Origin: Lingula anatina
Taxonomy: Eukaryota; Animalia; Brachiopoda
Assembly (NCBI GenBank): GCA_051362555.1
Contig: CM120640.1
Span: 33,933,967-33,997,966, forward strand
DNA length: 64,000 nucleotides
Reading direction: 5' to 3'
The notes under the pieces: model-generated
The model's database searches: none
Told to the model about the DNA's origin: nothing
What the model saw: only the letters and a program-made list of their open reading frames with translations
Part shown: positions 15,302 through 60,376 of the stretch, in pieces
Layout: the number at the start of each line of letters is the position of its first letter
Numbering within the stretch: the first letter of the stretch is position 1
Program-made: the position numbers and the translations under genes

Positions 15302-15350
<49 letters not shown>

Positions 15351-23847: not shown

Positions 23848-24333
23848 TAAAATAAAGCTTTCAGGCTTCGTAATCAACGAAAAGTAAATTAATTAAAATG
23901 CTGCGTTGCTTCCATCGGTATGATTGCAATAAACTCAACTTACAGATTCGGTCTATTTGGGCATTATGTGAACTCTATCAGCGTGCCAATGTAGATTATT
24001 CAATGTTGACTGAAAAAGAAAAATAATTAATGGGAAGAATTACATCCGCAATTTCATATGTTAGTTTCTATAGGTAACTTTTCTCTCCTCTTTTGAAGTA
24101 ATTAACATGCACCATGTCTTCATGTGTTTGCAATATGATTTATGCTTATTTCATGGATATGCAATGCACCTGAAAGGCACGTTCCCTGAAGGACGCATTA
24201 AAACCTTAATAAGGTTTAACTCAGAATGTTTGTTTATAACATCACGCAAGAGCTTCCAATAAACCTAGTCCAATATATTGTAAAGGAATATTAAAACAAG
24301 GCAGCGATTTTTTATTATTATTGATTGATTATT

Positions 24334-26740: not shown

Positions 26741-26921
26741 ATGCGGTTTCCTATCTATACATTACTGTTTATTGTGTATACAACATCGGCAGAGCACAAC
26801 AAAAGAAGTGTATTTAATTGTATAGAAACGCCGTGTCAAAATGGGGGGATTTGTCGAGGAAATGACAACGGTTTCTATTGTGATTGTCCGATGGGGTTCC
26901 GCGGTTCGCTGTGCGAAAAAG
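26741..26921 (+). CDS. Gene 2 exon 1: signal peptide + EGF
   Basis: [38 protein letters not shown]...[14 protein letters not shown]; G|gtatgt. Confidence 0.85.
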
Positions 26922-36700: not shown

Positions 36701-39700
36701 TTTTCAACATTTATCTTCATAGCAGAAGAAACCATTCTAGATCTGTAAGACTGCTTTCCCATAACCTTATTGTACTGGCAGGATCGATCTATTTCAGTGG
36801 GAATTCTTGCTAAGGCACAGTCAGTGTAATCAGCTTAATTGTCTGGCATGGCCCCTTCACAAAGCAACAAGAACAACATCATAGACCACAAAGTTTTCCC
36901 AACTTTACCCAAGTACTTGAAGTAATGAGGGGACTGACAGACAATTAAGCTGCTTAAACTGAATGCAATTTAGTGAGAATCCCTGAGGAGTTAGATCTAT
37001 CCAGCTAGTCTAATAGGGTTATGGGAATGGTCCCTTAGTGTAGCCATACATGCCTAAACCCATGCATTTCCCAATATGTGCTGGAGTCAAAAAACTTTCA
37101 TATTTTGCACACCAGATATGCATTGTCCGCCTGGAACAACATATAAATCAGAAGGTACAGCTTGTCCAAATACCTGTGCGGACCTGGATGCGGAGGACAA
37201 TTGCAGCAAACCACCTGTAGAGGGCTGTTATTGCCCAGCGGGACAGATACTAAGTGATACTCAGTGTATTCTGGATAGAAATGAGTGTGGGTGCACTGAT
37301 TTGAAAAATGGTGGAAGTTATTATTTTGTGAGTATTGGTCATTTTCTATATTGAAAAATCATTCTGATGAGGGTTTTTTTACTCTGACTTTGTACATTTG
37401 TATTGATAAAATGCAAAATAGCCTTTTGGGTTAAATGTTTACTGAATACAACAATCAAAAATACATTATGCCTAGCTTTTTTTTAACTGAGAAAATTACA
37501 GGAAAATTATGCATTGGCTTCAGTTCTTCATCACAAAGTTACTACTCTCAGGGTTGGTGGAAATTACAGCTGCATCAGTTGTTGTGCAGTGTCCAATAAT
37601 AGCAAGTGGTAAATTACAGTTTTAGAAGAACAACCTTCAACATTGCTAGAAATACAACAACATTGCTAAAAATACACAATACACCACAAATACCACCACC
37701 AATATACTGAACTGATGGATTTATTTTAGATCAGTATACACATTAAGCTTTTAATTATAACCTAACAAAGTGTTTTATATCTTCTTTGAATTCATGTTTT
37801 ATAGATAGGCCAGATGTGGAGAAACATTGACTGTACAGAGAGTGGCAAATGCTTCGATCATCGCAGTTATAATATTCCATGGTTCTTTCCGGGCTTCATC
37901 TCACTGCAACCTCTGACGTGCGATCCAAACGCCAGATGTGAAGTGGTTAATGAGGTCAGGCTTTGCGCCTGCCAATCTGGATACAAGGGAGATGGACAGA
38001 CATGTACCAGTAGGTTTAATGACCATTGATGCACAGTGTGGAATTTTTGGTCACTTTGTGCTATATTTATCTGTTGCAAGCTGTTACAGTGTGTAATGAG
38101 TTAAGGATATTGAAAAAATACTTACTGGATAGAGAGCTGAAATAGGCTTAAAGGTACACTATCTCCTTAAAAATTTTCCAAAGTCAATTTTTCTTGTCTA
38201 CATATCCTGCAAAGCTACTAATCTTTCCCATTTCTGACTTAAAATTTGCACATGAAGTCTGATCTTTGCCACTAAGCCAACCATGTGACAATGTACAGTT
38301 TTAAATAGCATTATTAACTTTAGAATTAAAGAGTATTATGGTTTATCCATGGGCATGGCGACTTATTTGGGTCATTTAAGAAACTTGTAGAAGTGGTTGG
38401 TTTATATGTGTTATAAGGAATCCACATTTGCTTCATGTGTAACTTTCAAATCGTAAAAGCCCTAATTTAAAATAAAAGCACCTTAAGTCAGATATCCTAA
38501 AACACACAGGAAGGCATGATGTTCTAACTGACCTGCCAGTCATTAAGCTTATAATTTAATATTGAATTAAACATGGAATAAAACATCAATAAATCATCAA
38601 ATCTGGTCAAACAATGATTCATGAGTAGGAGAAAATTGTTTTTTATTCCCAAAATTAATTTTAGTGGTCATAGAGTACCTTTATGAAAAAAATTTATTTT
38701 ACAATGGGAATTTAACAAAAGAATACAGTAAGGCATCTGTGCCAAAATTTATGTTAATATTAACTGGAATATCTAGGGTGAGAGAGTTAAAGATGTTTGG
38801 ATAAAGGGACCTACAACCTTCTTACTACATGTACCAAGGCAATTGGATTGCCTAGCCTAATTTGTTTTTGGTTCATTTTCAGTTGCTGATATTTGCCTGG
38901 TGAAAGATCCAACATACAATGAGATTCCAAGAAACCTCTGTGCCAATGGTGTTTGTATCACATTTGGAGAGACATGGAAGTGCAAATGTTTTCTGGGGTG
39001 GAATGGAACACTGTGTGATGAAAGTAGGTTGAATCATGACATTTCCACTGACATTATTTAGGCCATTTACTTCAAACACTCTCACTGCCCTAGTGGAGTC
39101 TTCTTTAACAGTGCACTGACATTTAATTGTCATCTGACACACTAAGCTCCGTAAGAGAATCATCTCTAATATTGCACTGACATTTAATTGTGTGATCATC
39201 TAAATTTGCATCCTAAAATATGTGCTAAGAATAATCCACGATCTTATAAAACTTCCTACATATGAATAATTTGAGCCTTTTTTTCAGACATTGATGAGTG
39301 CGCTGTTAATCCCTGTCAGAATGGTGGCAACTGTACAGACTTGGTGGCCACATACAGATGTTCCTGTCCAGGAGGATTTACTGGGAAAGACTGTGAAACA
39401 AGTAAGACCCCATTTCCAGAGATTAGATCGATCTACTTTAGGGGTTCACGCTAAATAGCTGTCAGCTGAGCGGGCACAAAAGTTAATTACCCCCTTACAG
39501 CTTGTAGTAGGCGGGACGGACATTTAAGCCGGATTTTCTGACAGTAATCTAGTGAGACTCCCCGCGGGGATAGATCGATCTAAAAACTCTGGGAATACAG
39601 CCTAAGTGACTGTTATCTGTTAAAACACAGCTGTGTAATCGAAAAGTTTTCATTTATGATAGATCCAGATATTTAAAATACCTGTTGACTGTTTCGTCTG

Positions 39701-40567
39701 TTCACTCTGTCAACAGGTAAATCAAATATTTTTTATCTGGATTTATCATAAATGAAAACTTTCAGACTATTATAACTGAGATCCAATAAAGCTATTTTCA
39801 CACACAGTTACCTAGTTTGTTCTTTTTATGCTGTTGTTTTTATATGTAAATTTATGTGTTTCTGCTTGTTTTGTATTATATTTGTAATAGAAAAAAAGAG
39901 GTTAGTAATATGAAAATGAGCAGTGTGATAGCTTATAAACTTGAGAAGCAGATGTGAGACACATGAAATGACAGAATGGAGAAACATTCACAGCACCACT
40001 GCCTGGGATTTTCAGTCTACCTTTTAACTGAAGTGTGTTTATATAAAACTATATCCATTTCTGTAATAGATATTAATGATTGTGAACCAAATCCTTGTGC
40101 CAACGGTGGGACCTGCACGGATCATATCATGAACTACACATGCTCATGTGCAACTGGGTATAGTGGGAAAAACTGTGAAATAGGTACGTGCTTTTTTACT
40201 TTGAAAAAAATCTATATTTATGCAAATTCTCATTGGTAAAAATGCATAGAACAATATACATGTGGATGACAAGTTAATAGCCAGGTCAAGTGATCTAGTT
40301 CCTTCTTTGTTGACTTTTTGCACCAAATTTTGTGCTTTTTCACATTAAATAATTCTTACATGTATTGCAATTCTTGAAACAAGTAAGCAGCTATAGAATT
40401 GGTACCCTAATACTTCCTAGATAGTTGTTCTTAAAATATCCAAGAAAGACTGGTCATGATATTAACTTTTGGAGATGTTTTTACTCAAACTATGAATAAT
40501 TTATTCATTCTTCACATTTTGAACAATGAATACTCCAGGGGCTGGCACTGTGAGTCATCTTTCCTCA

Positions 40568-40598
<31 letters not shown>

Positions 40599-43500
40599 AT
40601 AACAAAAGCCAAACATTTTTCCTAGCGCTGCCATGCATTTCATCAGTTATTTTCTGTTTGACTGGTTTATATATATTTTGTAGACATAGATGATTGCGCT
40701 GAAAATCCCTGTAAAAATGGTGGCACTTGCACAGACTTGGTGGCAGCCTATGAATGTTCTTGTCCAGGAGGTTTTACTGGGAAAGACTGCGAAACCAGTA
40801 AGTGACTGTCACTGGCTGAAGCCACTAATACATGCTCATGTACAAACACACATGTTGAAACAAGCTTAGTGGTTGTTCCCTTTTGTAAAACCCATTAGCA
40901 TAAATACTGATATGCAAGCATGTAGGAAACAAATTTAAGTTAGGGCCTTATCCATGGAAGTCGCTTTACCTCCACCCCTTTCCTTCTATACTTCTGACTG
41001 AAGGAAGCATTTAAGTCATTGTTTATCAAGAATCTTATTTTCTCTTACTCATATATATTTAAGACATTGATGATTGTGAACACAACCACTGTTCCAATGG
41101 CGGCACCTGTGTAGATTTAGTTATGGACTTCCTATGCACCTGCACACCAGGCTATACGGGGAGACATTGCGAAAACAGTAAGTCTGTGTAAATGTAGATG
41201 GGATGGAATTTCAAAAAGATTTTCCACATTTAAAGAGGCTTTTGGTTAGATTTATTGGTTTAGCATTCCACTTACTTTATTTTAATTTGGGGATGTTTAT
41301 AGTTTAAGAAAATATATATGTGCTAAAACTTTTGCTGAAATTGTTACAGGCTTTTTTGTAAGTGACTATGGTTTCCACTGATAATGCATTTAACACACAT
41401 CATAATACCAAAACACTGTTTTATTATCTGTTGCAGATATAGATGACTGCGATCCATATCCATGTGTCAATGATGGAAACTGTACTGATCTGGTTCAGGA
41501 TTACACATGCACTTGTCTGGCAGGGTATACTGGGAAAAACTGTGAAATTGGTAAGAGTTATGAAGTATACATGTCTCGATATTTCATCACTTACTCTGAA
41601 AGGTGGGCACACCAAATTAATATTCTAAATAGATTACTTTTGGTGTACAGAGATTTACAAGCAATTAAACCTATGAGAGTATACCTTAGAAAATAAGTAA
41701 ATACATGTACATTACTACGAAGGATATTTCATGGTATTTATGTTAATTTCAGACATTGATGACTGTGCTGAGAAGCCTTGTAAAAATGATGCTACATGCA
41801 TTGACTTGGTGGCCTCATATAGATGCATATGTCTGCCAGGTTTTACTGGGAAAGACTGTGAAACAAGTAAGTAGCAAAATATGCCTGTTTTGAAATTGGA
41901 TCATGGCTCTTTTTGAATAAATTACTTTAATTTGAAATCATTTGTTAAAACCACAAGGCTAGTTTTTTGTCTGTAATGTTTTTATATGATTTTTGTTTTA
42001 GATATAGACGACTGCGATCCAGATCCATGTGTCAATGGTGGAAACTGTACTGATCTGGTTCAGGATTACACATGCACTTGTCTGGCAGGGTATACTGGGA
42101 AAAACTGTGAAATTGGTAAGAATTATGATGTATACATGCCTTGTTATTTCATTAGTTTATGTGAAAGGTGGGCACACCATTGTATTGGCCTTCAGTCTAA
42201 ATAGATTACTTATGGTGAAGAGATATTTATGAGCAATTGAAGCTTTGAGTCAATATCTTGGAAATGGGTAAATACACGTGCATTTCTACCCATATATTTC
42301 ATAGTATTTAATCCTTTTTTCAGATATTGATAACTGTGCTGAGCAGCCCTGTAAAAATGATGCTACATGCATTGACTTGGTGGCCGCATATAGATGCATA
42401 TGTCTGCCAGGTTTTACTGGGAAAGACTGTGAAACGAGTAAGTAGCAAAATATGCCTGTTTTGAAATGGGATCATGGCTCTTTTTGAGAAAATTACTTTA
42501 ATTTGAAATCATTTGTTAAAACCACAAGGCTAGTTTTTTGTCTGTAATGTATATGATTTTTGTTTTAGATATAGACGACTGCGATCCAGATCCATGTGTC
42601 AATGGTGGAAACTGTACTGATCTGGTCCAGGATTACACATGCACTTGTCCAGCAGGGTATACTGGGAAAAACTGTGAAATTGGTAAGAGTTATGAAGTAT
42701 ACAAGTCTTGATATTTCATCACTTACTCTGAAAGGTGGGCACACCAAATTAATATTCTAAATAGATTACTTTTGGTTTACAGAAATTTACAAGCAATTAA
42801 ACCTATGAGAGTATACCTTAGAAAATAAGTAAATACATGTACATTACTGCGAAGGATGTTTCATGGTATTTATGTTAATTTCAGACATTGATGACTGTGC
42901 TGAGAAGCCTTGTAAAAATGATGCTACATGCATTGACTTGGTGGCCTCATATAGATGCATATGTCTGCCAGGTTTTACTGGGAAAGACTGTGAAACGAGT
43001 AAGTAGCAAAATATGCCTGTTTTGAAATGGGATCATGGCTCTTTTTGATAAAATTACTTTAATTTGAAATCATTTGTTAAAACCACAAGGCTAGTTTTTT
43101 GTCTGTAATGTGTTTATATGAATGTTGTTTTAGATATAGACGACTGCGATCCAGATCCATGTGTCAATGATGGAAACTGTACTGATCTGGTTCAGGATTA
43201 CACATGCACTTGTCCGGCAGGGTATACTGGGAAAAACTGTGAAATTGGTAAGAGTTATGAAGTATACATGTCTCGATATTATCACTTACTCTGAAAGGTG
43301 GGCACACCAAATTAATATTGTAAATAGATTACTTTTGGTTTACAGAGATTTACAAGCAATTAAACTTATGAGAGTATACCTTAGAAAATAAGTAAATACA
43401 TGTACATTACTACGAAGGATGTTTCATGGTATTTATGTTAATTTCAGACATTGATGACTGTGCTGAGAAGCCCTGTAAAAATGATGCTACATGCATTGAC

Positions 43501-46500
43501 TTGGTGGCCGCATATAGATGCATATGTCTGCCAGGTTTTACTGGGAAAGACTGTGAAACGAGTAAGTAGCAAAACATGCCTGTTTTGAAATGGGATCATG
43601 GCTCTTTTTGAGAAAATTACTTTAATTTGAAATCATTTGTTAAAACCACAAAGCTAGTTTTTGTTTGTAATGTTTTTATATGATTTTTGTTTTAGATATA
43701 GACGACTGCGATCCAGATCCATGTATCAATGGTGGAAACTGTACTGATCTGGTTCAGGATTACACATGCACTTGTTTGGCAGGGTATACTGGGAAGAACT
43801 GTGAAATTGGTAAGAATTATGATGTATACATGCCTTATTATTTCATTAGTTGATGTGAAAGGTGGGCACACCATTTTATTAGCCTTAAGTCTAAATAGAT
43901 TACTTATGGTGAAGAGATATTTATGAGCAATTGAAGCTTTGAGTCAATACCTTGGAAATGGGTAAATACATGTGCATTTCTACCCATATATTTCATGGTA
44001 TTTAATCCTTTTTTCAGATATTGATAACTGTGCTGAGCAGCCCTGTAAAAATGATGCTACATGCATTGACTTGGTGGCCGCATATAGATGCATATGTCTG
44101 CCAGGTTTTACTGGGAAAGACTGTGAAACGAGTAAGTAGCAAAATATGCCTGTTTTTAAATGGGATCATGGCTCTTTTTGAGAAAATTACTTTAATTTGA
44201 AATCATTTGTTAAAACCACAAGGCTAGTTTTTTTGTCTGTAATGTGTTTATATGATTTTTGTTTTAGATATAGACGACTGCGATCCAGATCCATGTGTCA
44301 ATGGTGGAAACTGTACTGATCTGGTTCAGGATTACACATGCACTTGTCCAGCAGGGTATACTGGGAAAAACTGTGAAATTGGTAAGAGTTATGAAGTATA
44401 CATGTCTCGATATTTCATCACTTGCTCTGAGAGGTGGGCACACCAAATTAATGTTCTAAATAGATTACTTTTGGTGTACAGAGATTTACAAGCAATTAAA
44501 CCTACGAGAGTATACCTTAGAAAATAAGTAAATACATGTACATTACTACGAAGGATGTTTCATGGTATTTATGTTAATTTCAGACATTGATGACTGTGCT
44601 GAGAAGCCTTGTAAAAATGATGCTACATGCATTGACTTGGTGGCCTCATATAGATGCATATGTCTGCCAGGTTTTACTGGGAAAGACTGTGAAACGAGTA
44701 AGTAGCAAAACATGCCTGTTTTGAAATTGGATCATGGCTCTTTTTGAGAAAATTACTTTAACTTGAAATCATATGTTAAATACCACAAGGCTAGTTTTTT
44801 GTCTGTAATGTGTTTATATGATTTTTGTTTTAGATATAGACGACTGCGATCCATATCCATGTGTCAATGGTGGAAACTGTACTGATCTGGTTCAGGATTA
44901 CACATGCACTTGTCTGGCAGGGTATACTGGGAAAAACTGTGAAACTGGTAAGAATTATGATGTATACATGCCTTGTTATTTCATTAGTTGATGTGAAAGG
45001 TGGGCACACCATTTTATTGGCCTTAAGTCTAAATAGATTACTTATGGTGAAGAGATATTTATGAGCAATTGAAGCTTTGAGTCAATACCTTGGAAATGGG
45101 TAAATACATGTGCATTTCTACCCATATATTTCATGGTATTTAATCCTTTTTTCAGATATTGATAACTGTGCAGAGCAGCCCTGTAAAAATGATGCTACAT
45201 GCATTGACTTGGTGGCCGCATATAGATGCATATGTCTGCCAGGTTTTACTGGGAAAGACTGTGAAACGAGTAAGTAGCAAAATATGCCTGTTTTGAAATG
45301 GGATCATGGCTCTTTTTGAGAAAATTACTTTAATTTGAAATCATTTGTTAAAACCACAAGGCTAGTTTTTTGTCAGTAATGTATATGATTTTTGTTTTAG
45401 ATATAGATGACTGCGATCCAGATCCATGTGTCAATGGTGGAAACTGTACTGATCTGGTCCAGGATTACACATGCACTTGTCCAGCAGGGTATACTGGGAA
45501 AAACTGTGAAATTGGTAAGAGTTATGAAGTATACAAGTCTCGATATTTCATCACTTACTCTGAAAGGTGGGCACACCAAATTAATGTTCTAATTAGATTA
45601 CTTTTGGTTTACAGAAATTTACAAGCAATTAAACCTATGAGAGTATACCTTAGAAAATAAGTAAATACATGTACATTACTACGAAGGATGTTTCATGGTA
45701 TTTATGTTAATTTCAGACATTGATGACTGTGCTGAGAAGCCTTGTAAAAATGATGCTACATGCATTGACTTGGTGGCCTCATATAGATGCATATGTCTGC
45801 CAGGTTTTACTGGGAAAGACTGTGAAACGAGTAAGTAGCAAAACATGCCTGTTTTGAAATGGGATCATGGCTCTTTTTGAGAAAATTACTTTAATTTGAA
45901 ATCATTTGTTAAAACCACAAGGCTAGTTTTTGTCTGTAATGTTTTTATATGATTTTTGTTTTAGATATAGATGACTGCGATCCATATCCATGTGTCAATG
46001 GTGGAAACTGTACTGATCTGGTTCAGGATTACACATGCACTTGTCTGGCAGGGTATACTGGGAAAAACTGTGAAATTGGTAAAAATTATGATGTATACAT
46101 GCCTTTTTATTTTATTAGTTGATGTGAAAGGTGGGCACACCATTTTATTGGCCTTAAGTCTAAATAGATTACTTATGGTGAAGAGATATTTATGAGCTAT
46201 TGAAGCTTTGAGTCAATACCTTGGAAATGGGTAAATACACGTGCATTTCTACCCATATATTTCATGGTATTTAATCCTTTTTCAGATATTGATAACTGTG
46301 CTGAGCAGCCCTGTAAAAATGATGCTACATGTATTGACTTGGTGGCCGCATATAGATGCATATGTCTGCCAGGTTTTACTGGGAAAGACTGTGAAACGAG
46401 TAAGTAGCAAAATATGCCTGTTTTGAAATGGGATCATGGCTCTTTTTGAGAAAATTACTTTAATTTGAAATCATTTGTTAAAACCACAATGCTAGTTTTT

Positions 46501-49500
46501 TTGCCTGTAATGTGTTTATATGATTTTTGTTTTAGATAAAGATGACTGCGATCCAGATCCATGTGTCAATGGTGGAAACTGTACTGATCTGGTTCAGGAT
46601 TACACATGCACTTGTCCGGCAGGGTATACTGGGAAAAACTGTGAAATTGGTAAGAGTTATGAAGTATACATGTCTTGATATTTCATCACTTACTCTGAAA
46701 GGTGGGCACACCAAATTAATATTCTAAATAGATTACTTTTGGTTTACAGAGATTTACAAGCAATTAAACCTATGAGAGTATACCTTAGAAAATAAGTAAA
46801 TACATGTACATTACTACGAAGGATGTTTCATGGTATTTATGTTAATTTCAGACATTGATGACTGTGCTGAGAAGCCTTGTAAAAATGATGCTACATGCAT
46901 TGACTTGGTGGCCTCATATAGATGCATATGTCTGCCAGGTTTTACTGGGAAAGACTGTGAAACGAGTAAGTAGCAAAATATGCCTGTTTTGAAATGGGAT
47001 CATGGCTATTTTTGAGAAAATTACTTTAATTTGAAATCATTTGTTAAAACCACAAGGCTAGTTTTTTGTCTGTAATGTGTTTATATGATTTTTGTTTTAG
47101 ATATAGATGACTGCGATCCATATCCATGTCTCAATGATGGAAACTGTACTGATCTGGTTCAGGATTACACATGCACTTGTCTGGCAGGGTATACTGGGAA
47201 AAACTGTGAAATTGGTAAGAATTATGATGTATACATGCCTTGTTATTTCATTAGTTGATGTGAAAGGTTGGCACATCATTTTATTAGCCTTTTGTCTAAA
47301 TAGATTACTTATGGTGAAGATATATTTATGAGCAATTGAAGCTTTGAGTCAAAACCTTAGAAATGGGTTAATACACTCGCATTTCTACCCATATATTTCA
47401 TGGTATTTAATCCTTTTTTCAGATATTGATAACTGTGCTGAGCAGCCCTGTAAAAATGATGCTACATGTATTGACTTGGTGGGCGCATATAGATGCATAT
47501 GTCTGCCAGGTTTTACTGGGAAAGACTGTGAAACCAGTAAGTAGTAAAGTATACTCTTTCTAAAATGGGATCATCGCTATTTATGAGAAAATTACTTTCA
47601 TTTGAAATCATTTCTCATAACCAGGAGGTTAGTTATTTCTCTGAAATGTGTTTATATGATTTTTTTTTAGATATAGATGACTGCGATACAGATCCATGTG
47701 TCAATGGTGGAAACTGTACTGATCTAGTCCTGGATTACACATGCACTTGTCCAGCAGGGTATACTGGGAAAAACTGTGAAATTGGTAAAATTATGAAGTA
47801 TACATGTCTTGATATTTCATCACTTACTCTGAAAGGTGGGCACACCAAATTAATATTCTAAATAGATTACTTTTGGTGTACAGAGATTTACAAGCAATTA
47901 AACCTATGAGAGTATACCTTAGAAAATAAGTAAATACATGTACATTACTACGAAGGATGTTTCATGGTATTTATGTTAATTTCAGACATTGATGACTGTG
48001 CTGAGAAGCCTTGTAAAAATGATGCTACATGCATTGACTTGGTGGCCTCATATAGATGCATATGTCTGCCAGGTTTTACTGGGAAAGACTGTGAAACAAG
48101 TAAGTAGCAAAATATGCCTGTTTTGAAATGGGATCATGGCTCTTTTTGAGAAAATTACTTTAATTTGAAATCATTTGTTAAAACCACAAGGCTAGTTTTT
48201 TGTCTGTAATGTTTTTATATGATTTTTGTTTTAGATATAGACGACTGCGATCCAGATCCATGTGTCAATGGTGGAAACTGTACTGATCTGGTTCAGGATT
48301 ACACATGCACTTGTCTGGCAGGGTATACTGGGAAAAACTGTGAAATTGGTAAAAATTATGATGTATACATGCCTTGTTATTTTATTAGTTGATGTGAAAG
48401 GTGGGCACACCATTTTATTGGCCTTAAGTCTAAATAGATTACTTATGGTGAAGAGATATTTATGAGCAATTGAAGCTTTGAGTCAATACTTTGAAAATGG
48501 GTAAATACATGTGCATTTCTACCCATATATTTCATGGTATTTAATCCTTTTTTCAGATATTGATAACTGTGCTGAGCAGCCCTGTAAAAATGATGCTACA
48601 TGCATTGACATGGTGGCCGCATATAGATGCATATGTCTGCCAGGTTTTACTGGGAAAGACTGTGAAACGAGTAAGTAGCAAAATATGCCTGTTTTGAAAT
48701 GGGATCATGGCTCTTTTTGAGAAAATTACTTTAATTTGAAATCATTTATTAAAACCACAAGGCTAGTTTTTTGTCTGTAATGTGTTTATATGATTTTTGT
48801 TTTAGATATAGACGACTGCGATCCATATCCATGTGTCAATGGTGGAAACTGTACTGATCTGGTTCAGGATTACACATGCACTTGTCCAGCAGGGTATACT
48901 GGGAAAAACTGTGAAATTGGTAAGAGTTATGAAGTATACATGTCTCGATATTTCATCACTTACTCTGAAAGGTGGGCACACCAAATTAATATTGTAAATA
49001 GATTACTTTTGGTTTACAGAGATTTACAAGCAATTAAACTTATGAGAGTATACCTTAGAAAATAAGTAAATACATGTACATTACTACGAAGGATGTTTCA
49101 TGGTATTTATGTTAATTTCAGACATTGATGACTGTGCTGAGAAGCCCTGTAAAAATGATGCTACATGCATTGACTTGGTGGCCGCATATAGATGCATATG
49201 CCTGCCAGGTTTTACTGGGAAAGACTGTGAAATGAGTAAGTAGCAAAACATGCCTGTTTTGAAATGGGATCATGGCTCTTTTTGAGAAAATTACTTTAAT
49301 TTGAAATCATTTGTTAAAACCACAAAGCTAGTTTTTGTCTGTAATGTTTTTATATGATTTTTGTTTTAGATATAGACGACTGCGATCCAGATCCATGTAT
49401 CAATGGTGGAAACTGTACTGATCTGGTTCAGGATTACACATGCACTTGTCTGGCAGGGTATACTGGGAAGAACTGTGAAATTGGTAAGAATTATGATGTA

Positions 49501-52500
49501 TACATGCCTTGTTATTTCATTAGTTGATGTGAAAGGTGGGCACACCATTTTATTAGCCTTAAGTCTAAATAGATTACTTATGGTGAAGAGATATTTATGA
49601 GCAATTGAAGCTTTGAGTCAATACCTTGGAAATGGGTAAATACATGTGCATTTCTACCCATATATTTCATGGTATTTAATCCTTTTTTCAGATATTGATA
49701 ACTGTGCTGAGCAGCCCTGTAAAAATGATGCTACATGCATTGACTTGGTGGCCGCATATAGATGCATATGTCTGCCAGGTTTTACTGGGAAAGACTGTGA
49801 AACGAGTAAGTAGCAAAATATGCCTGTTTTGAAATGGGATCATGGCTCTTTTTGAGAAAATTACTTTAATTTGAAATCATTTGTTAAAACCACAAGGCTA
49901 GTTTTTTTGTCTGTAATGTGTTTATATGATTTTTGTTTTAGATATAGACGACTGCGATCCAGATCCATGTGTCAATGGTGGAAACTGTACTGATCTGGTT
50001 CAGGATTACACATGCACTTGTCCAGCAGGGTATACTGGGAAAAACTGTGAAATTGGTAAGAGTTATGAAGTATACATGTCTTGATATTTCATCACTTGCT
50101 CTGAGAGGTGGGCACACCAAATTAATGTTCTAAATAGAATACTTTTGGTGTACAGAGATTTACAAGCAATTAAACCTACGAGAGTATACCTTAGAAAATA
50201 AGTAAATACATGTACATTACTACGAAGGATGTTTCATGGTATTTATGTTAATTTCAGACATTGATGACTGTGCTGAGAAGCCTTGTAAAAATGATGCTAC
50301 ATGCATTGACTTGGTGGCCTCATATAGATGCATATGTCTGCCAGGTTTTACTGGGAAAGACTGTGAAACGAGTAAGTAGCAAAACATGCCTGTTTTGAAA
50401 TTGGATCATGGCTCTTTTTGAGAAAATTACTTTAATTTGAAATCATTTGTTAAAACCACAAGGCTAGTTTTTTGTCTGTAATGTGTTTATATGATTTTTG
50501 TTTTAGATATAGACGACTGCGATCCAGATCCATGTGTCAATGGTGGAAACTGTACTGATCTGGTTCAGGATTACACATGCACTTGTCTGGCAGGGTATAC
50601 TGGGAAGAACTGTGAAATTGGTAAGAATTATGATGTATACATGTCTTGATATTTCATTAGTTGATGTGAAAGGTGGGCACACCATTTTATTGGCCTTAAG
50701 TCTAAATAGATTACTTATGGTGAAGAGATATTTATGAGCAATTGAAGCTTTGAGTCAATACCTTGGAAATGGGTAAATACATGTGCATTTCTACCCATAT
50801 ATTTCATGGTATTTAATCCTTTTTTCAGATATTGATAACTGTGCTGAGCAGCCCTGTAAAAATGATGCTACATGCATTGACTTGGTGGCCGCATATAGAT
50901 GCATATGTCTGCCAGGTTTTACTGGGAAAGACTGTGAAACGAGTAAGTAGCAAAATATGCCTGTTTTGAAATGGGATCATGGCTCTTTTTGAGAAAATTA
51001 CTTTAATTTGAAATCATTTGTTAAAACCACAAGGCTAATTTTTTTGTCTGTAATGTGTTTATATGATTTTTGTTTTAGATATAGACGACTGCGATCCAGA
51101 TCCATGTGTCAATGGTGGAAACTGTACTGATCTGGTTCAGGATTACACATGCACTTGTCCAGCAGGGTATACTGGGAAAAACTGTGAAATTGGTAAGAGT
51201 TATGAAGTATACATGTCTCGATATTTCATCACTTACTCTGAGAGGTGGGCACACCAAATTAATGTTCTAAATAGATTACTTTTGGTTTACAGAGATTTAC
51301 AAGCAATTAAACCTACGAGAGTATACCTTAGAAAATAAGTAAATACATGTACATTACTACGAAGGATGTTTCATGGTATTTATGTTAATTTCAGACATTG
51401 ATGACTGTGCTGAGAAGCCTTGTAAAAATGATGCTACATGCATTGACTTGGTGGCCTCATATAGATGCATATGTCTGCCAGGTTTTACTGGGAAAGACTG
51501 TGAAACGAGTAAGTAGCAAAACATGCCTGTTTTGAAATTGGATCATGGCTCTTTTTGAGAAAATTACTTTAATTTGAAATCATTTGTTAAAACCACAAGG
51601 CTAGTTTTTTGTCTGTAATGTTTTTATATGATTTTTGTTTTAGATATAGACGACTGCGATCCAGATCCATGTATCAATGGTGGAAACTGTACTGATCTGG
51701 TTCAGGATTACACATGCACTTGTCTGGCAGGGTATACTGGGAAGAACTGTGAAATTGGTAAGAATTATGATGTATACATGTCTTGATATTTCATTAGTTG
51801 ATGTGAAAGGTGGGCACACCATTTTATTGGCCTTAAGTCTAAATAGATTACTTATGGTGAAGAGATATTTATGAGCAATTGAAGCTTTGAGTCAATACCT
51901 TGGAAATGGGTAAATACATGTGCATTTCTACCCATATATTTCATGGTATTTAATCCTTTTTTCAGATATTGATAACTGTGCTGAGCAGCCCTGTAAAAAT
52001 GATGCTACATGCATTGACTTGGTGGCCGCATATAGATGCATATGTCTGCCAGGTTTTACTGGGAAAGACTGTGAAACGAGTAAGTAGCAAAATATGCCTG
52101 TTTTGAAATGGGATCATGGCTCTTTTTGAGAAAATTACTTTAATTTGAAATCATTTGTTAAAACCACAAGGCTAATTTTTTTGTCTGTAATGTGTTTATA
52201 TGATTTTTGTTTTAGATATAGACGACTGCGATCCAGATCCATGTGTCAATGGTGGAAACTGTACTGATCTGGTTCAGGATTACACATGCACTTGTCCAGC
52301 AGGGTATACTGGGAAAAACTGTGAAATTGGTAAGAGTTATGAAGTATACATGTCTCGATATTTCATCACTTACTCTGAGAGGTGGGCACACCAAATTAAT
52401 GTTCTAAATAGATTACTTTTGGTTTACAGAGATTTACAAGCAATTAAACCTATGAGAGTATACCTTAGAAAATAAGTAAATACATGTACATTACTACGAA

Positions 52501-55500
52501 GGATGTTTCATGGTATTTATGTTAATTTCAGACATTGATGACTGTGCTGAGAAGCCTTGTAAAAATGATGCTACATGCATTGACTTGGTGGCCTCATATA
52601 GATGCATATGTCTGCCAGGTTTTACTGGGAAAGACTGTGAAACGAGTAAGTAGCAAAACATGCCTGTTTTGAAATTGGATCATGGCTCTTTTTGAGAAAA
52701 TTACTTTAATTTGAAATCATTTGTTAAAACCACAAGGCTAGTTTTTTGTCTGTAATGTTTTTATATGATTTTTGTTTTAGATATAGACGACTGCGATCCA
52801 GATCCATGTATCAATGGTGGAAACTGTACTGATCTGGTTCAGGATTACACATGCACTTGTCTGGCAGGGTATACTGGGAAGAACTGTGAAATTGGTAAGA
52901 ATTATGATGTATACATGTCTTGATATTTCATTAGTTGATGTGAAAGGTGGGCACACCATTTTATTGGCCTTAAGTCTAAATAGATTACTTATGGTGAAGA
53001 GATATTTATGAGCAATTGAAGCTTTGAGTCAATACCTTGGAAATGGGTAAATACATGTGCATTTCTACCCATATATTTCATGGTATTTAATCCTTTTTTC
53101 AGATATTGATAACTGTGCTGAGCAGCCCTGTAAAAATGATGCTACATGCATTGACTTGGTGGCCGCATATAGATGCATATGTCTGCCAGGTTTTACTGGG
53201 AAAGACTGTGAAACGAGTAAGTAGCAAAATATGCCTGTTTTGAAATGGGATCATGGCTCTTTTTGAGAAAATTACTTTAATTTGAAATCATTTGTTAAAA
53301 CCACAAGGCTAGTTTTTTTGTCTGTAATGTGTTTATATGATTTTTGTTTTAGATATAGACGACTGCGATCCAGATCCATGTGTCAATGGTGGAAACTGTA
53401 CTGATCTGGTTCAGGATTACACATGCACTTGTCCAGCAGGGTATACTGGGAAAAACTGTGAAATTGGTAAGAGTTATGAAGTATACATGTCTTGATATTT
53501 AATCACTTACTCTGAAAGGTGGGCACACCAAATTAATATTCTAAATAGATTACTTTTGGTGTACAGAGATTTACAAGCAATTAAACCTATGAGAGTATAC
53601 CTTAGAAAATAAGTAAATACATGTACATTACTACGAAGGATGTTTCATGGTATTTATGTTAATTTCAGACATTGATGACTGTGCTGAGAAGCCTTGTAAA
53701 AATGATGCTACATGCATTGACTTGGTGGCCTCATATAGATGCATATGTCTGCCAGGTTTTACTGGGAAAGACTGTGAAACGAGTAAGTAGCAAAACATGC
53801 CTGTTTTGAAATTGGATCATGGCTCTTTTTGAGAAAATTACTTTAATTTGAAATCATTTGTTAAAACCACAAGGCTAGTTTTTTGTCTGTAATGCTTTAT
53901 ATGATTTTTGTTTTAGATATAGACGACTGCGATCCAGATCCATGTGTCAATGGTGGAAACTGTACTGATCTGGTTCAGGATTACACATGCACTTGTCTGG
54001 CAGGGTATACTGGGAAGAACTGTGAAATTGGTAAGAATTATGATGTATACATGTCTTGATATTTCATTAGTTGATGTGAAAGGTGGGCACACCATTTTAT
54101 TGGCCTTAAGTCTAAATAGATTACTTATGGTGAAGAGATATTTATGAGCAATTGAAGCTTTGAGTCAATATCTTGGAAATGGGTAAATACATGTGCATTT
54201 CTACCCATATATTTCATGGTATTTAATCCTTTTTTCAGATATTGATAACTGTGCTGAGCAGCCCTGTAAAAATGATGCTACATGCATTGACTTGGTGGCC
54301 GCATATAGATGCATATGTCTGCCAGGTTTTACTGGGAAAGACTGTGAAACGAGTAAGTAGCAAAATATGCCTGTTTTGAAATGGGATCATGGCTCTTTTT
54401 GAGAAAATTACTTTAATTTGAAATCATTTGTTAAAACCACAAGGCTAATTTTTTTGTCTGTAATGTGTTTATATGATTTTTGTTTTAGATATAGACGACT
54501 GCGATCCAGATCCATGTGTCAATGGTGGAAACTGTACTGATCTGGTTCAGGATTACACATGCACTTGTCCAGCAGGGTATACTGGGAAAAACTGTGAAAT
54601 TGGTAAGAGTTATGAAGTATACATGTCTCGATATTTCATCACTTACTCTGAGAGGTGGGCACACCAAATTAATGTTCTAAATAGATTACTTTTGGTGTAC
54701 AGAGATTTACAAGCAATTAAACCTATGAGAGTATACCTTAGAAAATAAGTAAATACATGTACATTACTACGAAGGATGTTTCATGGTATTTATGTTAATT
54801 TCAGACATTGATGACTGTGCTGAGAAGCCTTGTAAAAATGATGCTACATGCATTGACTTGGTGGCCTCATATAGATGCATATGTCTGCCAGGTTTTACTG
54901 GGAAAGACTGTGAAACGAGTAAGTAGCAAAACATGCCTTTTTTGAAATTGGATCATGGCTCTTTTTGAGAAAATTACTTTAATTTGAAATCATTTGTTAA
55001 AACCACAAGGCTAGTTTTTTGTCTGTAATGTTTTTATATGATTTTTGTTTTAGATATAGACGACTGCGATCCAGATCCATGTATCAATGGTGGAAACTGT
55101 ACTGATCTGGTTCAGGATTACACATGCACTTGTCTGGCAGGGTATACTGGGAAGAACTGTGAAATTGGTAAGAATTATGATGTATACATGTCTTGATATT
55201 TCATTAGTTGATGTGAAAGGTGGGCACACCATTTTATTGGCCTTAAGTCTAAATAGATTACTTATGGTGAAGAGATATTTATGAGCAATTGAAGCTTTGA
55301 GTCAATACCTTGGAAATGGGTAAATACATGTGCATTTCTACCCATATATTTCATGGTATTTAATCCTTTTTTCAGATATTGATAACTGTGCTGAGCAGCC
55401 CTGTAAAAATGATGCTACATGCATTGACTTGGTGGCCGCATATAGATGCATATGTCTGCCAGGTTTTACTGGGAAAGACTGTGAAACGAGTAAGTAGCAA

Positions 55501-58500
55501 AATATGCCTGTTTTGAAATGGGATCATGGCTCTTTTTGAGAAAATTACTTTAATTTGAAATCATTTGTTAAAACCACAAGGCTAGTTTTTTTGTCTGTAA
55601 TGTGTTTATATGATTTTTGTTTTAGATATAGACGACTGCGATCCAGATCCATGTGTCAATGGTGGAAACTGTACTGATCTGGTTCAGGATTACACATGCA
55701 CTTGTCCAGCAGGGTATACTGGGAAAAACTGTGAAATTGGTAAGAGTTATGAAGTATACATGTCTTGATATTTCATCACTTACTCTGAAAGGTGGGCACA
55801 CCAAATTAATATTCTAAATAGATTACTTTTGGTGTACAGAGATTTACAAGCAATTAAACCTATGAGAGTATACCTTAGAAAATAAGTAAATACATATACA
55901 TTACTACGAAGGATGTTTCATGGTATTTATGTTAATTTCAGACATTGATGACTGTGCTGAGAAGCCTTGTAAAAATGATGCTACATGCATTGACTTGGTG
56001 GCCTCATATAGATGCATATGTCTGCCAGGTTTTACTGGGAAAGACTGTGAAACAAGTAAGTAGCAAAACATGCCTGTTTTGAAATTGGATCATGGCTCTT
56101 TTTGAGAAAATTACTTTAATTTGAAATCATTTGTTAAAACCACAAGGCTAGTTTTTTGTCTGTAATGCTTTATATGATTTTTGTTTTAGATATAGATGAC
56201 TGCGATCCATATCCATGTGTCAATGGTGGAAACTGTACTGATCTGGTTCAGGATTACACATGCACTTGTCTGGCAGGGTATACTGGGAAAAACTGTGAAA
56301 TTGGTAAGAATTATGATGTATACATGCCTTGTTATTTCATTAGTTGATGTGAAAGGTGGGCACACCATTTTATTGGCCTTAAGTCTAAATAGATTACTTA
56401 TGGTGAAGAGATATTTATGAGCAATTGAAGCTTTGAGTCAATATCTTGGAAATGGGTAAATACATGTGCATTTCTACCCATATATTTCATGGTATTTAAT
56501 CCTTTTTTCAGATATTGATAACTGTGCTGAGAAGCCCTGTAAAAATGATGCTACATGCATTGACTTGGTGGGCGCATATAGATGCATATGTCTGCCAGGT
56601 TTTACTGGGAAAGACTGTGAAACCAGTAAGTAGTAAAGTATACTCTTTCTAAAAAGGGATCATGGCTATCTGTGAGAAAATTACTTTAATTTGAAATCAT
56701 TTGTTATAACCAGGATGTTAGTTTGTTTTCTCTGAAATGTGTTTATATGATTTTTGTTTTAGATATAGATGACTGCGATCCATATCCATGTGTCAGTGGT
56801 GGAAACTGTACTGATCTGGTTCAGGATTACACATGCACTTGTCTGGCAGGGTATACTGGGAAGAACTGTGAAATTGGTAAGACAGTAGTTATGAATTCAA
56901 AATGATATATAAGTTATTGAACTTCTGTGTATTGATACAGTATCTTGAATGTTTCTTAATTGATATCAAAATAATTTTTTTTCAGACATTGATGAGTGTG
57001 TAGACAACAACTGTCAAAATGATGCTGAATGTGTTGACTTGGTGGCTGGATATCAATGTGTATGCCTGCAAGGATTTACAGGGCAATATTGTGAAACAGG
57101 TAAGAGTTTAGAACCAACTTAATTACAGCCCACATTTTACAGGACAACATACTGTGCAAATACCCACAGTGTACACATTACATTACATAGCAAGGCAGAG
57201 AATAATACCATCTTTATTATCAGTACACTTGCTTAAGCTTGCAGTTTTGTCAACTACCAGTAGACTTTAATTGTGAACCCAGAAATAGATCTAAGAATTG
57301 ATCTTTATTGATATGTAACAATTGTACATTTTTCTTTAGTTATGAATTTAAAATGATATATAAGTTACTGAATACTAATATGAGTACTGATATCACGATT
57401 ATTATTATAACTTTCATATAATCATAATTAATTCATTTATTTACTATAATTTATAATGCATTATAATTATCAATACTTTTATATAGTCATAATTAATTCA
57501 TTTATTTACGATTAATTATAATAACCCAGGTGAGCACATAATGCTGTTGCAACGTGCTGCCTGCTTTGAATTTATGTATTTTGTATATATCATTATTGTA
57601 GAAATAAATCTGTTTTAAAAAAAAATAAGTTACTGAACTTCTGTGTATTGATACAGTATCTTGAATGTTTCTTAATTGATATCAATATCATTTTTTCAGA
57701 CATTGATGACTGTGTAGACAACAACTGTCAAAATGATGCTGAATGTGTTTACTTGGTGGCTGGATATAAATGTGTATGCTTGCAAGGTTTTACTGGACAA
57801 TATTGTGAAACAGGTACGAGTTTAGAACCAACTAAATTACAACCTACATTTTGCACGATCACATTCTGCACAAATACCCAAAGTGTGCACATTATGTTTT
57901 ATAACAAGGCAGAGAATAGTACCACTTTTATTATCAGTACACTTGTTAAAAGCTTGCACTGCTGTCAGCTACCAGTAGAATTAATTCTTACTCCTGGACA
58001 GTAATGGATCTGAGAAATTATCTTTATTAATGTACACATTGTAGATATTCTGTAGCTATGAATTGAAAATGATATATAAGTTACTGAACCTCATTGTATT
58101 ATATTATTAAGCTTATCTTTAATATCTCTTAATTGATATCAATATCATTTTTTTAGATATTGATGACTGTGTAGACAACAACTGTCAAAATGATGCTGAA
58201 TGTGTTGACTTGGTGGCTGGATATCAATGTGCATGCCTGCAAGGATTTACAGGGCAATTCTGTGAAACAGGTAAGAGTTTGTAACCAACTAAATAACAGC
58301 CCACATTTAACATGAATACATTCTGAACAAATACCCACATTACATTTCATAGCAAAACTGAAAATGACTCCATATATATAATTAGTACTCTGGCTTAAGA
58401 GACATTGATGCAGAATTAACATATACCTGCTACAGTTGTAATAAGACTGAATTAAAAGTCCAGTGAAAAATTGACTTTATTCATGTAAAAATTGTTTATA

Positions 58501-60376
58501 TTTCTGTATAATTTTATGAATTCAAATGAAACATAAGCTACTGAACCTGCATGTATAAATACAGTACCCAGAGTGTTTCTTAATTGATATCAAAATCATT
58601 TTTTCAGACATTGATGACTGTGTAGACAACAACTGTCAAAATGATGCTGAATGTGTTGACTTGGTGGCTGGATACAAATGTGTATGCCTGACAGGTTTTA
58701 CAGGGCAATACTGTGAAACAGGTAAGAGTTTGTAATCAATTAAAATACAGCCCACGTCTTACAGGTTCACATTCAGTACAAATAGCCAAAGTGTGCACAT
58801 AACATTACATGGCAAGACTGAGAATCATTCTGGCTCTATTCTCAGTATTCTGGATTAAGGTTGCACATGAAAGATTGGTGTCCTCAACTCAAACAACAAC
58901 AACACACACACACTTGATAAAAGAGCTATAGATATTTTTATACTTGTGACAATCACAGACAAGCTCCTGAACTTACATCTAATGGTTACCTAAATTGTTA
59001 GCTACCTGAATTGTTTCTTGGAATTATATTTCAGACTTTTTAAAATGAAACTCTGTAAAAATGATGCTACATGACTGTCTTGACTTGGTGGCCTTATATA
59101 AATGCATATGCCTCCAAGTTTAAATGTGCTCGCTTGAAAAAAAGAGTTTTGCCTCAGTATTTATTATGAAATTTTACAAGTCCGTGAACCTCCATCTGAG
59201 GGTTAATGTGTTGAACATTAATTCAGTTACCTAAAACATTTCTTTGTATCATTTTTCAGACATTGATGACTGTGCAGATAACAACTGTCAAAATGATGCT
59301 GAATGTGTGGACTTGGTGGCTGGATATAAATGCATATGCTTGCCAGGTTTTACAGGGCAATACTGTGAAACTAGTAAGTGCTAGTAACAGACTATAAGAC
59401 AGTGTGTGTGCTTGTCCAGCATTGTATGTACACTCTTATTTTTTGTCATAATTGAAGCCATTAACTATTTGGTATATCAGCTAGTTTACATCTTCACTTC
59501 TGATCAGTATTTACCCTTATTAGCAGAATGAAAAGATTGCAGCAATATTGCAGCAAAAGTGGCAAACTTAAATTTGCAGCAACGCGTTTGTAGGAGTTTG
59601 CAAGAAAAATTTTATTGCTGCTAATTTGCAACCATATTGCAGCAATATTGCAGCAAACCTGCTGGTAATTTGCAGCAGAACTGATATTTTTCTAAGGGTA
59701 GTTATCATCATGAAAAGCCTGTCTCTGACAAATTTTGGCATCGTGCTTCAGAGACAGTCTTATTGTTTGGTATTTGAAAGCAGCTCCTGCTGTAAACGTG
59801 AATAGATGGTATTTATTCACTAGCCATACTCATTTCTTTTGTAGATATAGACGACTGTGATCCATATCCCTGTGTCAATGAAGGAACCTGCACTGATCTC
59901 GTTATGGATTACTCGTGCTCTTGTGTAATTGGTTATACTGGCAAAAACTGTGAAACGGGTAAGATTTAGGACTTCAGGATAATTTCTTCATTTTGTTTGG
60001 CCAGTCATTCAGAACCAAATATTTTAAATGGAATCAAACATCAAATCCAAGTGCAGGAATGAGTGGAGCAATGATTCATGAGTGGGAGAAGCTGCTTGTT
60101 TTTCTCCAGGATAATTCATTTTGGTGGGTAAGAGTACTTTTAAAAGACGGTGCTTACAAATGAAGAAAAATTCTGAGACGTATGAAAATGTGAATGATAA
60201 TATGTGTTTTGTATATGTTTTTTTCAGATGAGAATGATTGTGACCCCAGTCCATGTCAACATGGCGGCACATGTGTGGACCAGCTAGGGTTCTATTACTG
60301 CTTATGTCCACCAGGGTACTATGGAGAACATTGTCAGATAAGGCGTAGGTACCAATATAATAATTCTGCTCCAGGT

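What the first reader, a model, noticed from the sequence alone, without database searches (positions are those of the whole stretch)
37805..60344. 67 consecutive single-EGF exons between two VWD assemblies
Seen: 5 + 55 + 7 phase 1-1 EGF exons. Nearly all have D-I-D-[DEN]-C and C-x-D-x4-Y-x-C Ca-binding/beta-hydroxylation signatures, and I found no stop or frameshift in them. Known: canonical Notch has 36 EGF repeats, and tandem cbEGFs form Ca-stiffened rods. Inference: roughly 2550 residues of rod, possibly over 100 nm long, joining polymerising VWD heads, i.e. a fibrillin/Notch-like shaft in a mucin/FCGBP scaffold.
Basis: partly seen in the sequence, partly recalled or inferred. Interest (0 to 1): 0.78.

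Follow-up and report, generated by a model that had tools for sequence, protein, structure and literature searches.

The report
Lingula 67-EGF rod, a coding VNTR
A lamp-shell (Lingula) gene carries 67 intact one-domain EGF exons in a row between von Willebrand D units, most of them recent near-identical copies of a four-exon block, which would likely make a calcium-stiffened spacer about 160-200 nm long in a predicted secreted matrix protein; the database version of the same gene has only 33, so rod length likely varies between animals.

Summary
In detail: 67 phase 1-1 EGF exons (5+55+7), all AG/GT, no stop, in an 85-exon, 3,937-aa open model. The organism is Lingula anatina. The gene is already in RefSeq, misnamed 'notch homolog' (XP_013388135.1 and 14 isoforms), with the same domain order but 29-33 EGFs and differently homogenised repeats. 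The 55-exon core is a 1,137-bp P-K-P-Q unit copied with its introns about 13.5 times, no two units identical: a coding VNTR of the LPA KIV-2 kind. One DNA run gives about 8-14 copies per unit (rough). Three RNA runs show spliced array exons at 13-22 P-exon equivalents per unique exon, but most array-like reads come from a sister locus. The EGFs are Notch-type, not fibrillin-type. The VWD units are FCGBP-type without GDPH, and no mucin PTS domain is present, so 'polymerising heads' is unsupported. Close analogues exist: octovafibrin (29 EGFs), an amphioxus VWD-C8-TIL protein with 21 near-identical EGFs. The scan noted a similar EGF-exon array in an octopod. Verdict: real, new variant of a known kind, moderate interest.

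The parts
26741..26921 (+). Exon 1: ATG, signal-peptide-like hydrophobic start, first EGF
   Evidence: same start as RefSeq XP_013388160.1
29328..32561 (+). D assembly 1 (VWD in two exons, C8, TIL, E/TILa); 30 Cys; no GDPH
   Evidence: Pfam; model
32886..33648 (+). Two single-EGF exons (32886-33014, 33532-33648)
34531..38009 (+). D assembly 2 (VWD with GDPT instead of GDPH, C8, TIL, E + EGF_3 exon 37805-38009); 32 Cys
38883..41177 (+). EGF exons 1-5 of the run (38883, 39288, 40070, 40684, 41064); divergent; exon 41064 is in none of the 15 RefSeq isoforms
41437..56876 (+). 55-exon core array: 28 P, 14 K and 13 Q exons; higher-order unit P-K-P-Q of about 1,137 bp, 13 full units, 2-61 differences between units
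56986..59373 (+). Five N-type EGF exons (older duplications, about 450-bp period)
59034..59121 (+). Decayed K-like exon relic with frameshifting indels, intronic
59845..60344 (+). Last two EGF exons of the run (59845-59958, 60228-60344)
   Evidence: junction 59373-59845 in 7 reads of X12
60694..63767 (+). D assembly 3 (VWD with one spare Cys, C8, TIL, E + EGF_3 exon 63581-63767); 33 Cys; ends at a phase-1 donor, so the gene likely runs past the window
   Evidence: VWD-C8 junction in 4 reads of X13 and stranded reads on the last exon in X12 and X14

Best explanation
This is a Lingula anatina gene for a predicted secreted matrix protein with FCGBP-type VWD-C8-TIL units, in which 67 symmetric EGF exons lie in a row and likely form a long calcium-stiffened spacer, and whose 55-exon core is a recent exon-plus-intron tandem repeat that likely grows, shrinks and homogenises by unequal crossing-over and gene conversion. 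How it works: every exon is phase 1-1 and encodes one whole domain, so any number can be gained or lost without breaking the frame (shown). A P-K pair was duplicated and one half diverged to P-Q; the four-exon unit was then amplified (inferred from halves 97-98% alike within class and 88% between classes). Each domain would bind Ca2+ at its N-terminal interface and pack on the aromatic of the previous domain, as in Notch cbEGF pairs, giving a near-straight, strongly acidic, glycosylated rod (inferred from motifs; not measured). The D assemblies at the two ends would bind other mucus or matrix components non-covalently, so the molecule would act as a long cross-bridge in a secreted gel, cuticle or shell-associated matrix (inferred by analogy with FCGBP, sea star Sfp proteins and octovafibrin; tissue unknown).
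For: Open 85-exon model, 3,937 aa, all AG/GT. Same gene in RefSeq with the same exon order; unique parts differ at 18 of 960 and 9 of 359 residues. The RefSeq array has 22 K/P exons (33 EGFs in isoform X1), 0 of 11 K-class exons of Q type against 13 of 27 here, and a P variant (Asp at the 55662 site in 9 of 11) that is rare here (3 of 28). Introns are as homogeneous as exons (2.4-4.5% vs 1.0-2.2% mean difference) and units 49942-55625 differ by only 2-10 letters while edge units differ by 28-61. pN/pS is 0.34 (P), 0.16 (K), 0.24 (Q), 0.24 (N); none of the 17 distinct amino-acid changes in P and K/Q copies hits a cysteine or makes a stop. Stranded RNA with P-K, K-P, P-Q, Q-P, N-P and VWD-C8 joints in X12, X13, X14. 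Window-like P reads equal 13 (strict) to 22 (loose) copies per unique-exon depth, pooled. DNA contig depth at the array in X1 is about 8-14 times unique depth. Aromatic at C5+4 in 67 of 67, linker of 6 in 66 of 66, hydroxylation motif in 65 of 67; Notch EGF7 and EGF9 bind Ca2+ tightly with Asp at the third site (PMC4826273, passages). C8 and TIL profiles hit FCGBP best in the PDB (E 2.8e-17, 3.8e-30). Zonadhesin-like and FCGBP-like genes are among the mantle-high genes of Lingula (PMC4595640 Supplementary Table 19), which shows what relatives do, not this gene.
Against: No read or contig spans the array, so a single 67-EGF transcript is not shown. Expression is low (unique-exon depth 0.8-1.7 in about 6% of each run) and was near zero or absent in X15, X16 and X18, so the RNA ratios are rough and do not separate 28 from 11-22 P copies. 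Most array-like RNA reads are not from this haplotype: 124 of 171 P reads carry a letter found in 0 of 28 window copies, and K exons join a VWD exon and two upstream exons absent from the window; the P letters match XP_013398205.1. The RefSeq array may be collapsed or may have absorbed sister-locus units, so the 33 vs 67 contrast is partly uncertain. The strict cbEGF consensus is met in only 2 of 67, and 13 Q exons have Asn at the third site. Removing calcium did not change octopus EGF threads, whose EGFs lack the full motif (PMC10336842). No accession beginning XP_0133881 or XP_0133882 is in the 2026 shell-proteome supplement (isoform XP_023932140.1 not searched). The 3' end of the gene is outside the window, so a membrane anchor or a dimerising C-terminus is not excluded.
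Confidence: 0.62

Rival explanations
1. The array length is a near-neutral by-product of unequal crossing-over: the protein needs some EGF spacer, selection removes only broken exons, and 33 or 67 makes no difference.
For: The same gene has about half as many EGFs in RefSeq. The neighbouring gene shows the same kind of amplification with Sushi exons in about 1,390-bp units, which suggests a locus-wide tendency. Expression is low. pN/pS between K and Q is 0.60.
Against: Purifying selection on the repeats (pN/pS 0.16-0.34) and only one decayed copy outside the core. In scallop Sbp9 pieces, assembly changed with EGF number (PMC13348336, passages). Neither point bears directly on length in Lingula. 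This rival shares the DNA mechanism of the best explanation and differs only on whether length matters.
Confidence: 0.4
2. The mature transcripts use only part of the array: symmetric exons are skipped in many combinations, giving a ladder of shorter rods.
For: Phase 1-1 exons can be skipped in frame. The 15 RefSeq isoforms differ by 1-4 EGFs. A joint 57096-58605 that skips two N exons was listed (3 + 1 reads). Strictly window-like P reads give 13 rather than 28 copies.
Against: All array joints listed alternate P with K/Q; no P-P or K-K joint was listed. The N-exon skip and the RefSeq isoforms can arise from mis-mapping between near-identical exons. The sequenced animals need not carry this haplotype.
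Confidence: 0.15
3. The rod is mainly a calcium-loaded polyanion that templates apatite in the shell.
For: Rod pI 4.05, net charge -336 before Ca binding. EGF, EGF_CA, VWD, C8 and TIL domains are common in Lingula shell proteins (PMC4595640 Supplementary Table 27; PMC13425148).
Against: No match to this gene's main accessions in the 2026 shell-proteome supplement. No protein in the 2015 Supplementary Table 25 has just this domain set (2015 gene numbers could not be mapped). The acidic residues are mostly the cbEGF ligands themselves.
Confidence: 0.12
4. The array is over-expanded by the assembler.
For: Central units differ by as few as 2 letters in 1,137; the older assembly has 22 rather than 55 core exons; no spanning read was available.
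Against: No two of 13 full units are identical, and many carry private exon and intron variants. Contig depth in X1 is about 14 times unique depth in the array bins and 8-10 times at an intronic site; the tool warns this is not a copy number, and sister-locus exons add to exon depth.
Confidence: 0.07
5. It is a Notch-like signalling receptor, as the RefSeq name says.
For: The EGFs are most like Notch and Delta EGFs and carry O-fucose (32 of 67) and O-GlcNAc (65 of 67) consensus sites.
Against: No LNR, NOD or ankyrin family in the RefSeq protein; VWD-C8-TIL units flank the array; near-identical repeats cannot give position-specific ligand sites.
Confidence: 0.02

Closest known systems
[quoted passage not shown]
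   Same: The same gene: same start, same exon order, about 98% identical outside the array.
   Different: 29-33 EGFs instead of 67; plain K-P alternation, no Q type, another dominant P variant; lacks exon 41064; stops by reading through the TIL3 donor, whereas the window has a further exon at 63581-63767.
Human LPA KIV-2 repeat (also DMBT1, NEB): coding VNTRs of exon-plus-intron units
   Same: Whole domains copied with their introns, near-identical copies, repeat subtypes that some individuals lack, degenerate flanking units (PMC11201333, passages).
   Different: Unit is 1.1 kb with four one-domain exons instead of 5.6 kb with two exons per kringle; copy-number variation here rests on two assemblies and one DNA run, not on a population.
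Octovafibrin (Octopus bimaculoides egg tether protein)
   Same: Secreted protein with a run of 38-residue-type EGFs between two terminal assembly domains, load-bearing (PMC10336842, first part and passages).
   Different: 29 EGFs, C-type lectin ends, reported not calcium-binding; function shown there, inferred here.
Branchiostoma lanceolatum XP_066275240.1
   Same: Two VWD-C8-TIL units followed by 21 tandem near-identical EGFs; also misnamed notch-like.
   Different: Shorter run, no VWD after it in the model; probably an independent expansion (inference, no tree built).
FCGBP and zonadhesin (multi-D-assembly proteins)
   Same: C8 and TIL cysteine patterns align to FCGBP best among solved structures; most named top VWD hits are 'IgGFc-binding protein-like'.
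   Different: No FCGBP_N domain, no GDPH, D units separated by EGFs; no MAM domain.
Marine adhesive and cohesive proteins: sea star Sfp1-Sfp4, scallop Sbp9
   Same: VWD-C8-TIL units and tandem Ca-dependent EGFs are typical of secreted cohesive meshworks (PMC9382459); Sbp9 has 49 EGF-like repeats (PMC13348336).
   Different: There the two features are mostly in different proteins; no orthology shown.

Membership tests
Coding VNTR of exon-plus-intron units (LPA KIV-2 type) | Tandem units holding whole exons and introns at high identity | tested here: met
   K halves 97.7%, Q halves 96.7%; introns 2.4-4.5% apart
Coding VNTR of exon-plus-intron units (LPA KIV-2 type) | Copy number and repeat subtypes differ between haplotypes | tested here: inconclusive
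   55 vs 22 core exons and Q type 13 vs 0 between window and RefSeq, but the older assembly may be collapsed or chimeric
Calcium-binding EGF (cbEGF) rod | D/N-x-D/N-E/Q ... D/N-x4-Y/F consensus | tested here: inconclusive
   Strict form 2 of 67; with Asp at the third site (tolerated in Notch EGF7 and 9, PMC4826273) 53 of 67; hairpin part 65 of 67
Calcium-binding EGF (cbEGF) rod | [quoted passage not shown] | tested here: met
   67 of 67 and 66 of 66
Calcium-binding EGF (cbEGF) rod | Measured Ca2+ binding and rigidity | not testable with these tools
   Single-sequence model too poor (pLDDT 55.5)
Notch receptors | LNR, NOD, transmembrane and ankyrin domains after the EGFs | tested here: not met
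   None in Pfam scan of XP_013388135.1; VWD follows the array
Fibrillins | TB domains between cbEGF runs; long C5-C6 loop (recalled) | tested here: not met
   No TB family; C5-C6 spacing 8 in 67 of 67; best PDB hits Notch and Delta
FCGBP | FCGBP-type VWD-C8-TIL-E assemblies | tested here: met
   Best PDB matches for C8 and TIL profiles
FCGBP | N-terminal FCGBP_N domain (PMC4948705) and GDPH motifs (PMC10880436) | tested here: not met
   Protein starts signal-EGF-VWD; 0 of 3 VWDs have GDPH, one has GDPT
Gel-forming mucins / VWF | PTS domain; three tandem N-terminal D assemblies | tested here: not met
   At most 27 P+T+S per 100 aa; two N-terminal D units split by EGFs
Gel-forming mucins / VWF | Extra cysteines of the dimerising D3 assembly in C8 and TIL | tested here: inconclusive
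   All three C8 and TIL exons have 9 invariant Cys that align one to one with FCGBP, with no extra one; the C8 profile found no VWF or mucin chain, so there is no direct D3 alignment; D3 here has one spare Cys in its VWD
Gel-forming mucins / VWF | C-terminal cystine knot | not testable with these tools
   Gene likely continues beyond the window; no genome held
Zonadhesin | MAM domains (PMC4948705) | tested here: not met
   None in Pfam scans

The most novel reading that the evidence does not exclude
The gene is a length-polymorphic molecular ruler: Lingula haplotypes encode Ca-stiffened rods of about 80-100 nm or 160-200 nm between matrix-binding VWD heads, the repeat type is replaced wholesale between haplotypes, and the same K-P exon cassette is traded by gene conversion with a sister VWD gene, so mesh spacing in the animal's mucus, cuticle or shell matrix is set by a VNTR.
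Probability: 0.2. Interest if true: 0.65.

Novelty: new variant of a known kind. Interest (0 to 1): 0.4.

Why it matters
It is the longest unbroken EGF run in my sample: 67, against at most 45 in the 119 best EGF-rich hits of 1,405-4,472 aa examined and 32-33 in two RefSeq isoforms of this gene (longer proteins were not searched). It corrects a RefSeq 'Notch' label. It offers a natural test of whether EGF-rod length tunes a secreted material, because two versions differing twofold appear to exist in one species. It is also a warning: short RNA reads laid on such arrays are dominated by a sister locus. The mechanism of expansion and the rod-between-heads design are both known.

Tried and rejected
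No whole genome is held, so the 3' end and the sister locus could not be read. Homologue search with a VWD exon, longer proteins: nothing. ESM Atlas with a VWD exon: no usable hit. No RNA holder was listed in the run index; RNA runs came by species label. In one search the joint table was filled by repeat-derived reads, so no array joint could be read there. X15, X16 and X18 had little or no array signal; tissue is not given, so this says nothing on function. A single C8 exon found nothing in the PDB; the three-exon profile did. AlphaFold on four EGFs without an alignment was unusable (pLDDT 55.5); no fold search was run on it. The VWD-start motif seen in RNA loose ends was not found in the window or, as an exact motif, among the proteins stored, so the sister gene's VWD part is unidentified; RefSeq joins its K-P run to a GPR158-like receptor, which the reads do not show and may be a gene-model chimera. 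My first reading that all variant RNA reads come from the sister locus was revised: two of the variant letters are also dominant in the RefSeq allele of this gene. The 2015 gene numbers for mantle-high zonadhesin-like genes could not be mapped to this gene. Paper searches listed no paper on this gene or its array; the library lacks most subscription journals. No complex prediction was run. In the RNA ratio I dropped bin 59534-59814 (intronic, reads on both strands) and used X12, X13, X14 only.
Full report
Observation. Enumerating AG...GT exons with an open phase 1-1 frame and six cysteines gave 66 exons of 114 or 117 nt from 39288 to 60344. With the 141-nt exon at 38883 this is 67: five divergent exons, 55 in a core at 41437-56876, five N-type exons and two more. 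A model of the whole gene in the window has 85 exons, all AG/GT, and 3,937 codons without a stop; the EGF run is 2,556 aa. Pfam gives the order signal-EGF, VWD-C8-TIL-TILa, two EGFs, VWD-C8-TIL-EGF_3, the 67 EGFs, VWD-C8-TIL-TILa-EGF_3. The last exon ends at a phase-1 donor, so the gene likely continues past 64000.

Identity. A K exon hit a Lingula anatina protein at 98%. A VWD exon found XP_013388160.1, which matches the model exon for exon and differs at 18 of 960 residues before the array and 9 of 359 after it. [quoted passage not shown] The name is wrong: there is no LNR, NOD or ankyrin domain. So the gene and its architecture are on record; the 67-unit form was not among the records I found.

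The array as DNA. The core alternates a P exon with a K or Q exon: 28 P, 14 K, 13 Q. The two-exon halves are 97.7% (K) and 96.7% (Q) alike within class and 88% between classes, giving a four-exon unit of about 1,137 bp. Introns differ by 2.4-4.5% and exons by 1.0-2.2% within class. The six units at 49942-55625 differ by 2-10 letters, edge units by 28-61, and no two of 13 are identical. This is the pattern expected from recent unequal crossing-over with homogenisation (inference). pN/pS is 0.16-0.34 within classes and 0.60 between K and Q, and none of the 17 distinct amino-acid changes touches a cysteine.

Two versions of the gene. RefSeq isoform X1 has 33 EGFs, with 11 K and 11 P in the core and no Q type. 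Its P exons mostly carry Asp, Leu and Thr at three sites (9, 8 and 9 of 11) where the window has them in 3, 1 and 1 of 28. Collapse of repeats can shorten an array but cannot create other variants, so the two haplotypes look separately homogenised. The caveat is that the older assembly could have absorbed units from the sister locus described below.

Is the array real and used? DNA run X1 has summed contig depth of about 1,700-1,800 in the two array bins against 50-170 in repeat-free unique bins. Against the median of 13 unique-site depths this is about 14 for the K exon and 10 for an intronic site, or 10 and 8 against the highest. The tool warns that this is not a copy number. In RNA runs X12, X13 and X14, reads are stranded in the gene's direction and show P-K, K-P, P-Q and Q-P joints, one N-to-P joint (7 reads) and one VWD-to-C8 joint (4 reads). 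X15, X16 and X18 showed little or nothing.

The complication. Of 171 P reads at site 55643, 124 carry a letter found in 0 of 28 window copies. K exon ends join a VWD-start exon, and K exon starts join two other exons, none of which is in the window. XP_013398205.1 has four K and three P exons with those P letters. So a more strongly expressed sister locus supplies most array-like reads. After removing them, P reads equal 13 (strictly window-like) to 22 (all without the sister letter) copies per unit of unique-exon depth, pooled over three runs, with single runs from 10 to 27. Unique depth is only 0.8-1.7, so this shows that many array exons reach mature RNA. It does not show that one molecule holds all 55.

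The protein. The EGFs are Notch-type: eight residues between C5 and C6 in 67 of 67, a six-residue linker in 66 of 66, best solved relatives Notch1 and Delta-like 1. In Notch1, rigid interfaces go with the Ca consensus and an aromatic four residues after C5, and Asp at the third consensus site still binds tightly (PMC4826273, passages). The aromatic is in 67 of 67; the relaxed consensus in 53 of 67; the 13 Q exons have Asn at the third site, which that paper did not test. With an assumed rise of 2.5-3.0 nm per domain (recalled) and tilt and twist angles from that paper, 67 units span 155-199 nm and 33 units 76-98 nm. The rod has pI 4.05, 31 N-glycan sequons, 32 O-fucose and 65 O-GlcNAc consensus sites (the O-glycan motifs are recalled).

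The heads. C8 and TIL profiles match FCGBP best among solved structures. None of the three VWDs has GDPH; one has GDPT, and changing the His blocked cleavage in FCGBP D10 (PMC10880436, passages). D1 and D2 have even cysteine counts (30, 32). D3 has 33, the spare one in its VWD, also present in RefSeq. FCGBP dimerises through its last VWD, while spare cysteines in its D1 and D5/D11 do not form intermolecular bonds (PMC11796319, passages). There is no PTS region. Covalent polymerisation by these heads is therefore unsupported, though the unseen C-terminus could supply it.

Function. I commit to a secreted cross-bridge: matrix-binding D assemblies held apart by a Ca-stiffened rod, in mucus, cuticle or a shell-associated matrix. 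This is inference. Lingula has mantle-high zonadhesin-like and FCGBP-like genes and VWD and EGF domains in its shell proteome (PMC4595640, passages and supplement parts 7-9). This gene's main accessions are not in the 2026 shell-proteome supplement (PMC13425148, passages and two supplement searches).

Comparison. At the DNA level it works like LPA KIV-2 (PMC11201333, passages; lead from an earlier scan note). At the protein level it resembles octovafibrin (PMC10336842, first part and passages) and the VWD and EGF proteins of marine adhesives (PMC9382459, PMC13348336, passages). An amphioxus protein has two D units and 21 near-identical EGFs. Among 122 sequences examined (119 EGF-rich hits, two RefSeq isoforms, the window model), 7 had unbroken runs of 37 or more and only the window had 50 or more; that sample was limited to 1,405-4,472 aa and to 119 of 1,258 hits. 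It fails the tests for Notch, fibrillin, FCGBP, gel-forming mucin and zonadhesin (family features from PMC4948705, passages, and recall where marked).

Verdict. Real and transcribed; a record-length, probably length-polymorphic EGF spacer in an already annotated but misnamed Lingula gene. New variant of a known kind; interest 0.40.

Noticed in passing
window 389-16007, + strand: A neighbouring gene of the same build: a TILa + EGF_3 exon, then about 18 Sushi exons in two blocks of two-exon units of about 1,390 bp at 92-98% identity, then two CBM_14 chitin-binding exons and a LamG-like exon (no Pfam hit). A second coding tandem array in the same cluster.
   Followed up: partly
outside the window; RNA loose ends at window 55936, 56053, 56623: A more strongly expressed sister locus shares K and P exons at over 93% identity, joins them to another VWD exon and to at least two different upstream exons. 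RefSeq XP_013398205.1 joins such a K-P run to a GPR158-like receptor, possibly a chimeric model.
   Followed up: partly
window 63165-63767: RefSeq ends the protein by reading through the TIL3 donor into a stop; the window has a further TILa + EGF_3 exon with stranded RNA reads in two runs, so the annotation is likely truncated.
   Followed up: partly
window 41064-41177: An EGF exon present here but in none of the 15 RefSeq isoforms; its acceptor has a weak pyrimidine tract.
   Followed up: partly
window 23408-23850, 33828-34055, 39403-39605, 28396-28940, 29706-30050, 39643-39762: High-copy short interspersed elements, some palindromic (MITE-like), with very high DNA and RNA depth; one family occurs four times in the window.
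   Followed up: no
window 20636-21272: 34-bp minisatellite, 18.8 copies, between the two genes.
   Followed up: no
window 42001-57000: The array has a steady GC skew of about +0.2 against about 0.03 elsewhere.
   Followed up: no
protein P0043 (XP_013401500.1): Another Lingula protein of 5,683 aa with the same D-assembly + EGF_3 module, about 31% identical, the closest non-self match for all three D units among stored proteins.
   Followed up: no
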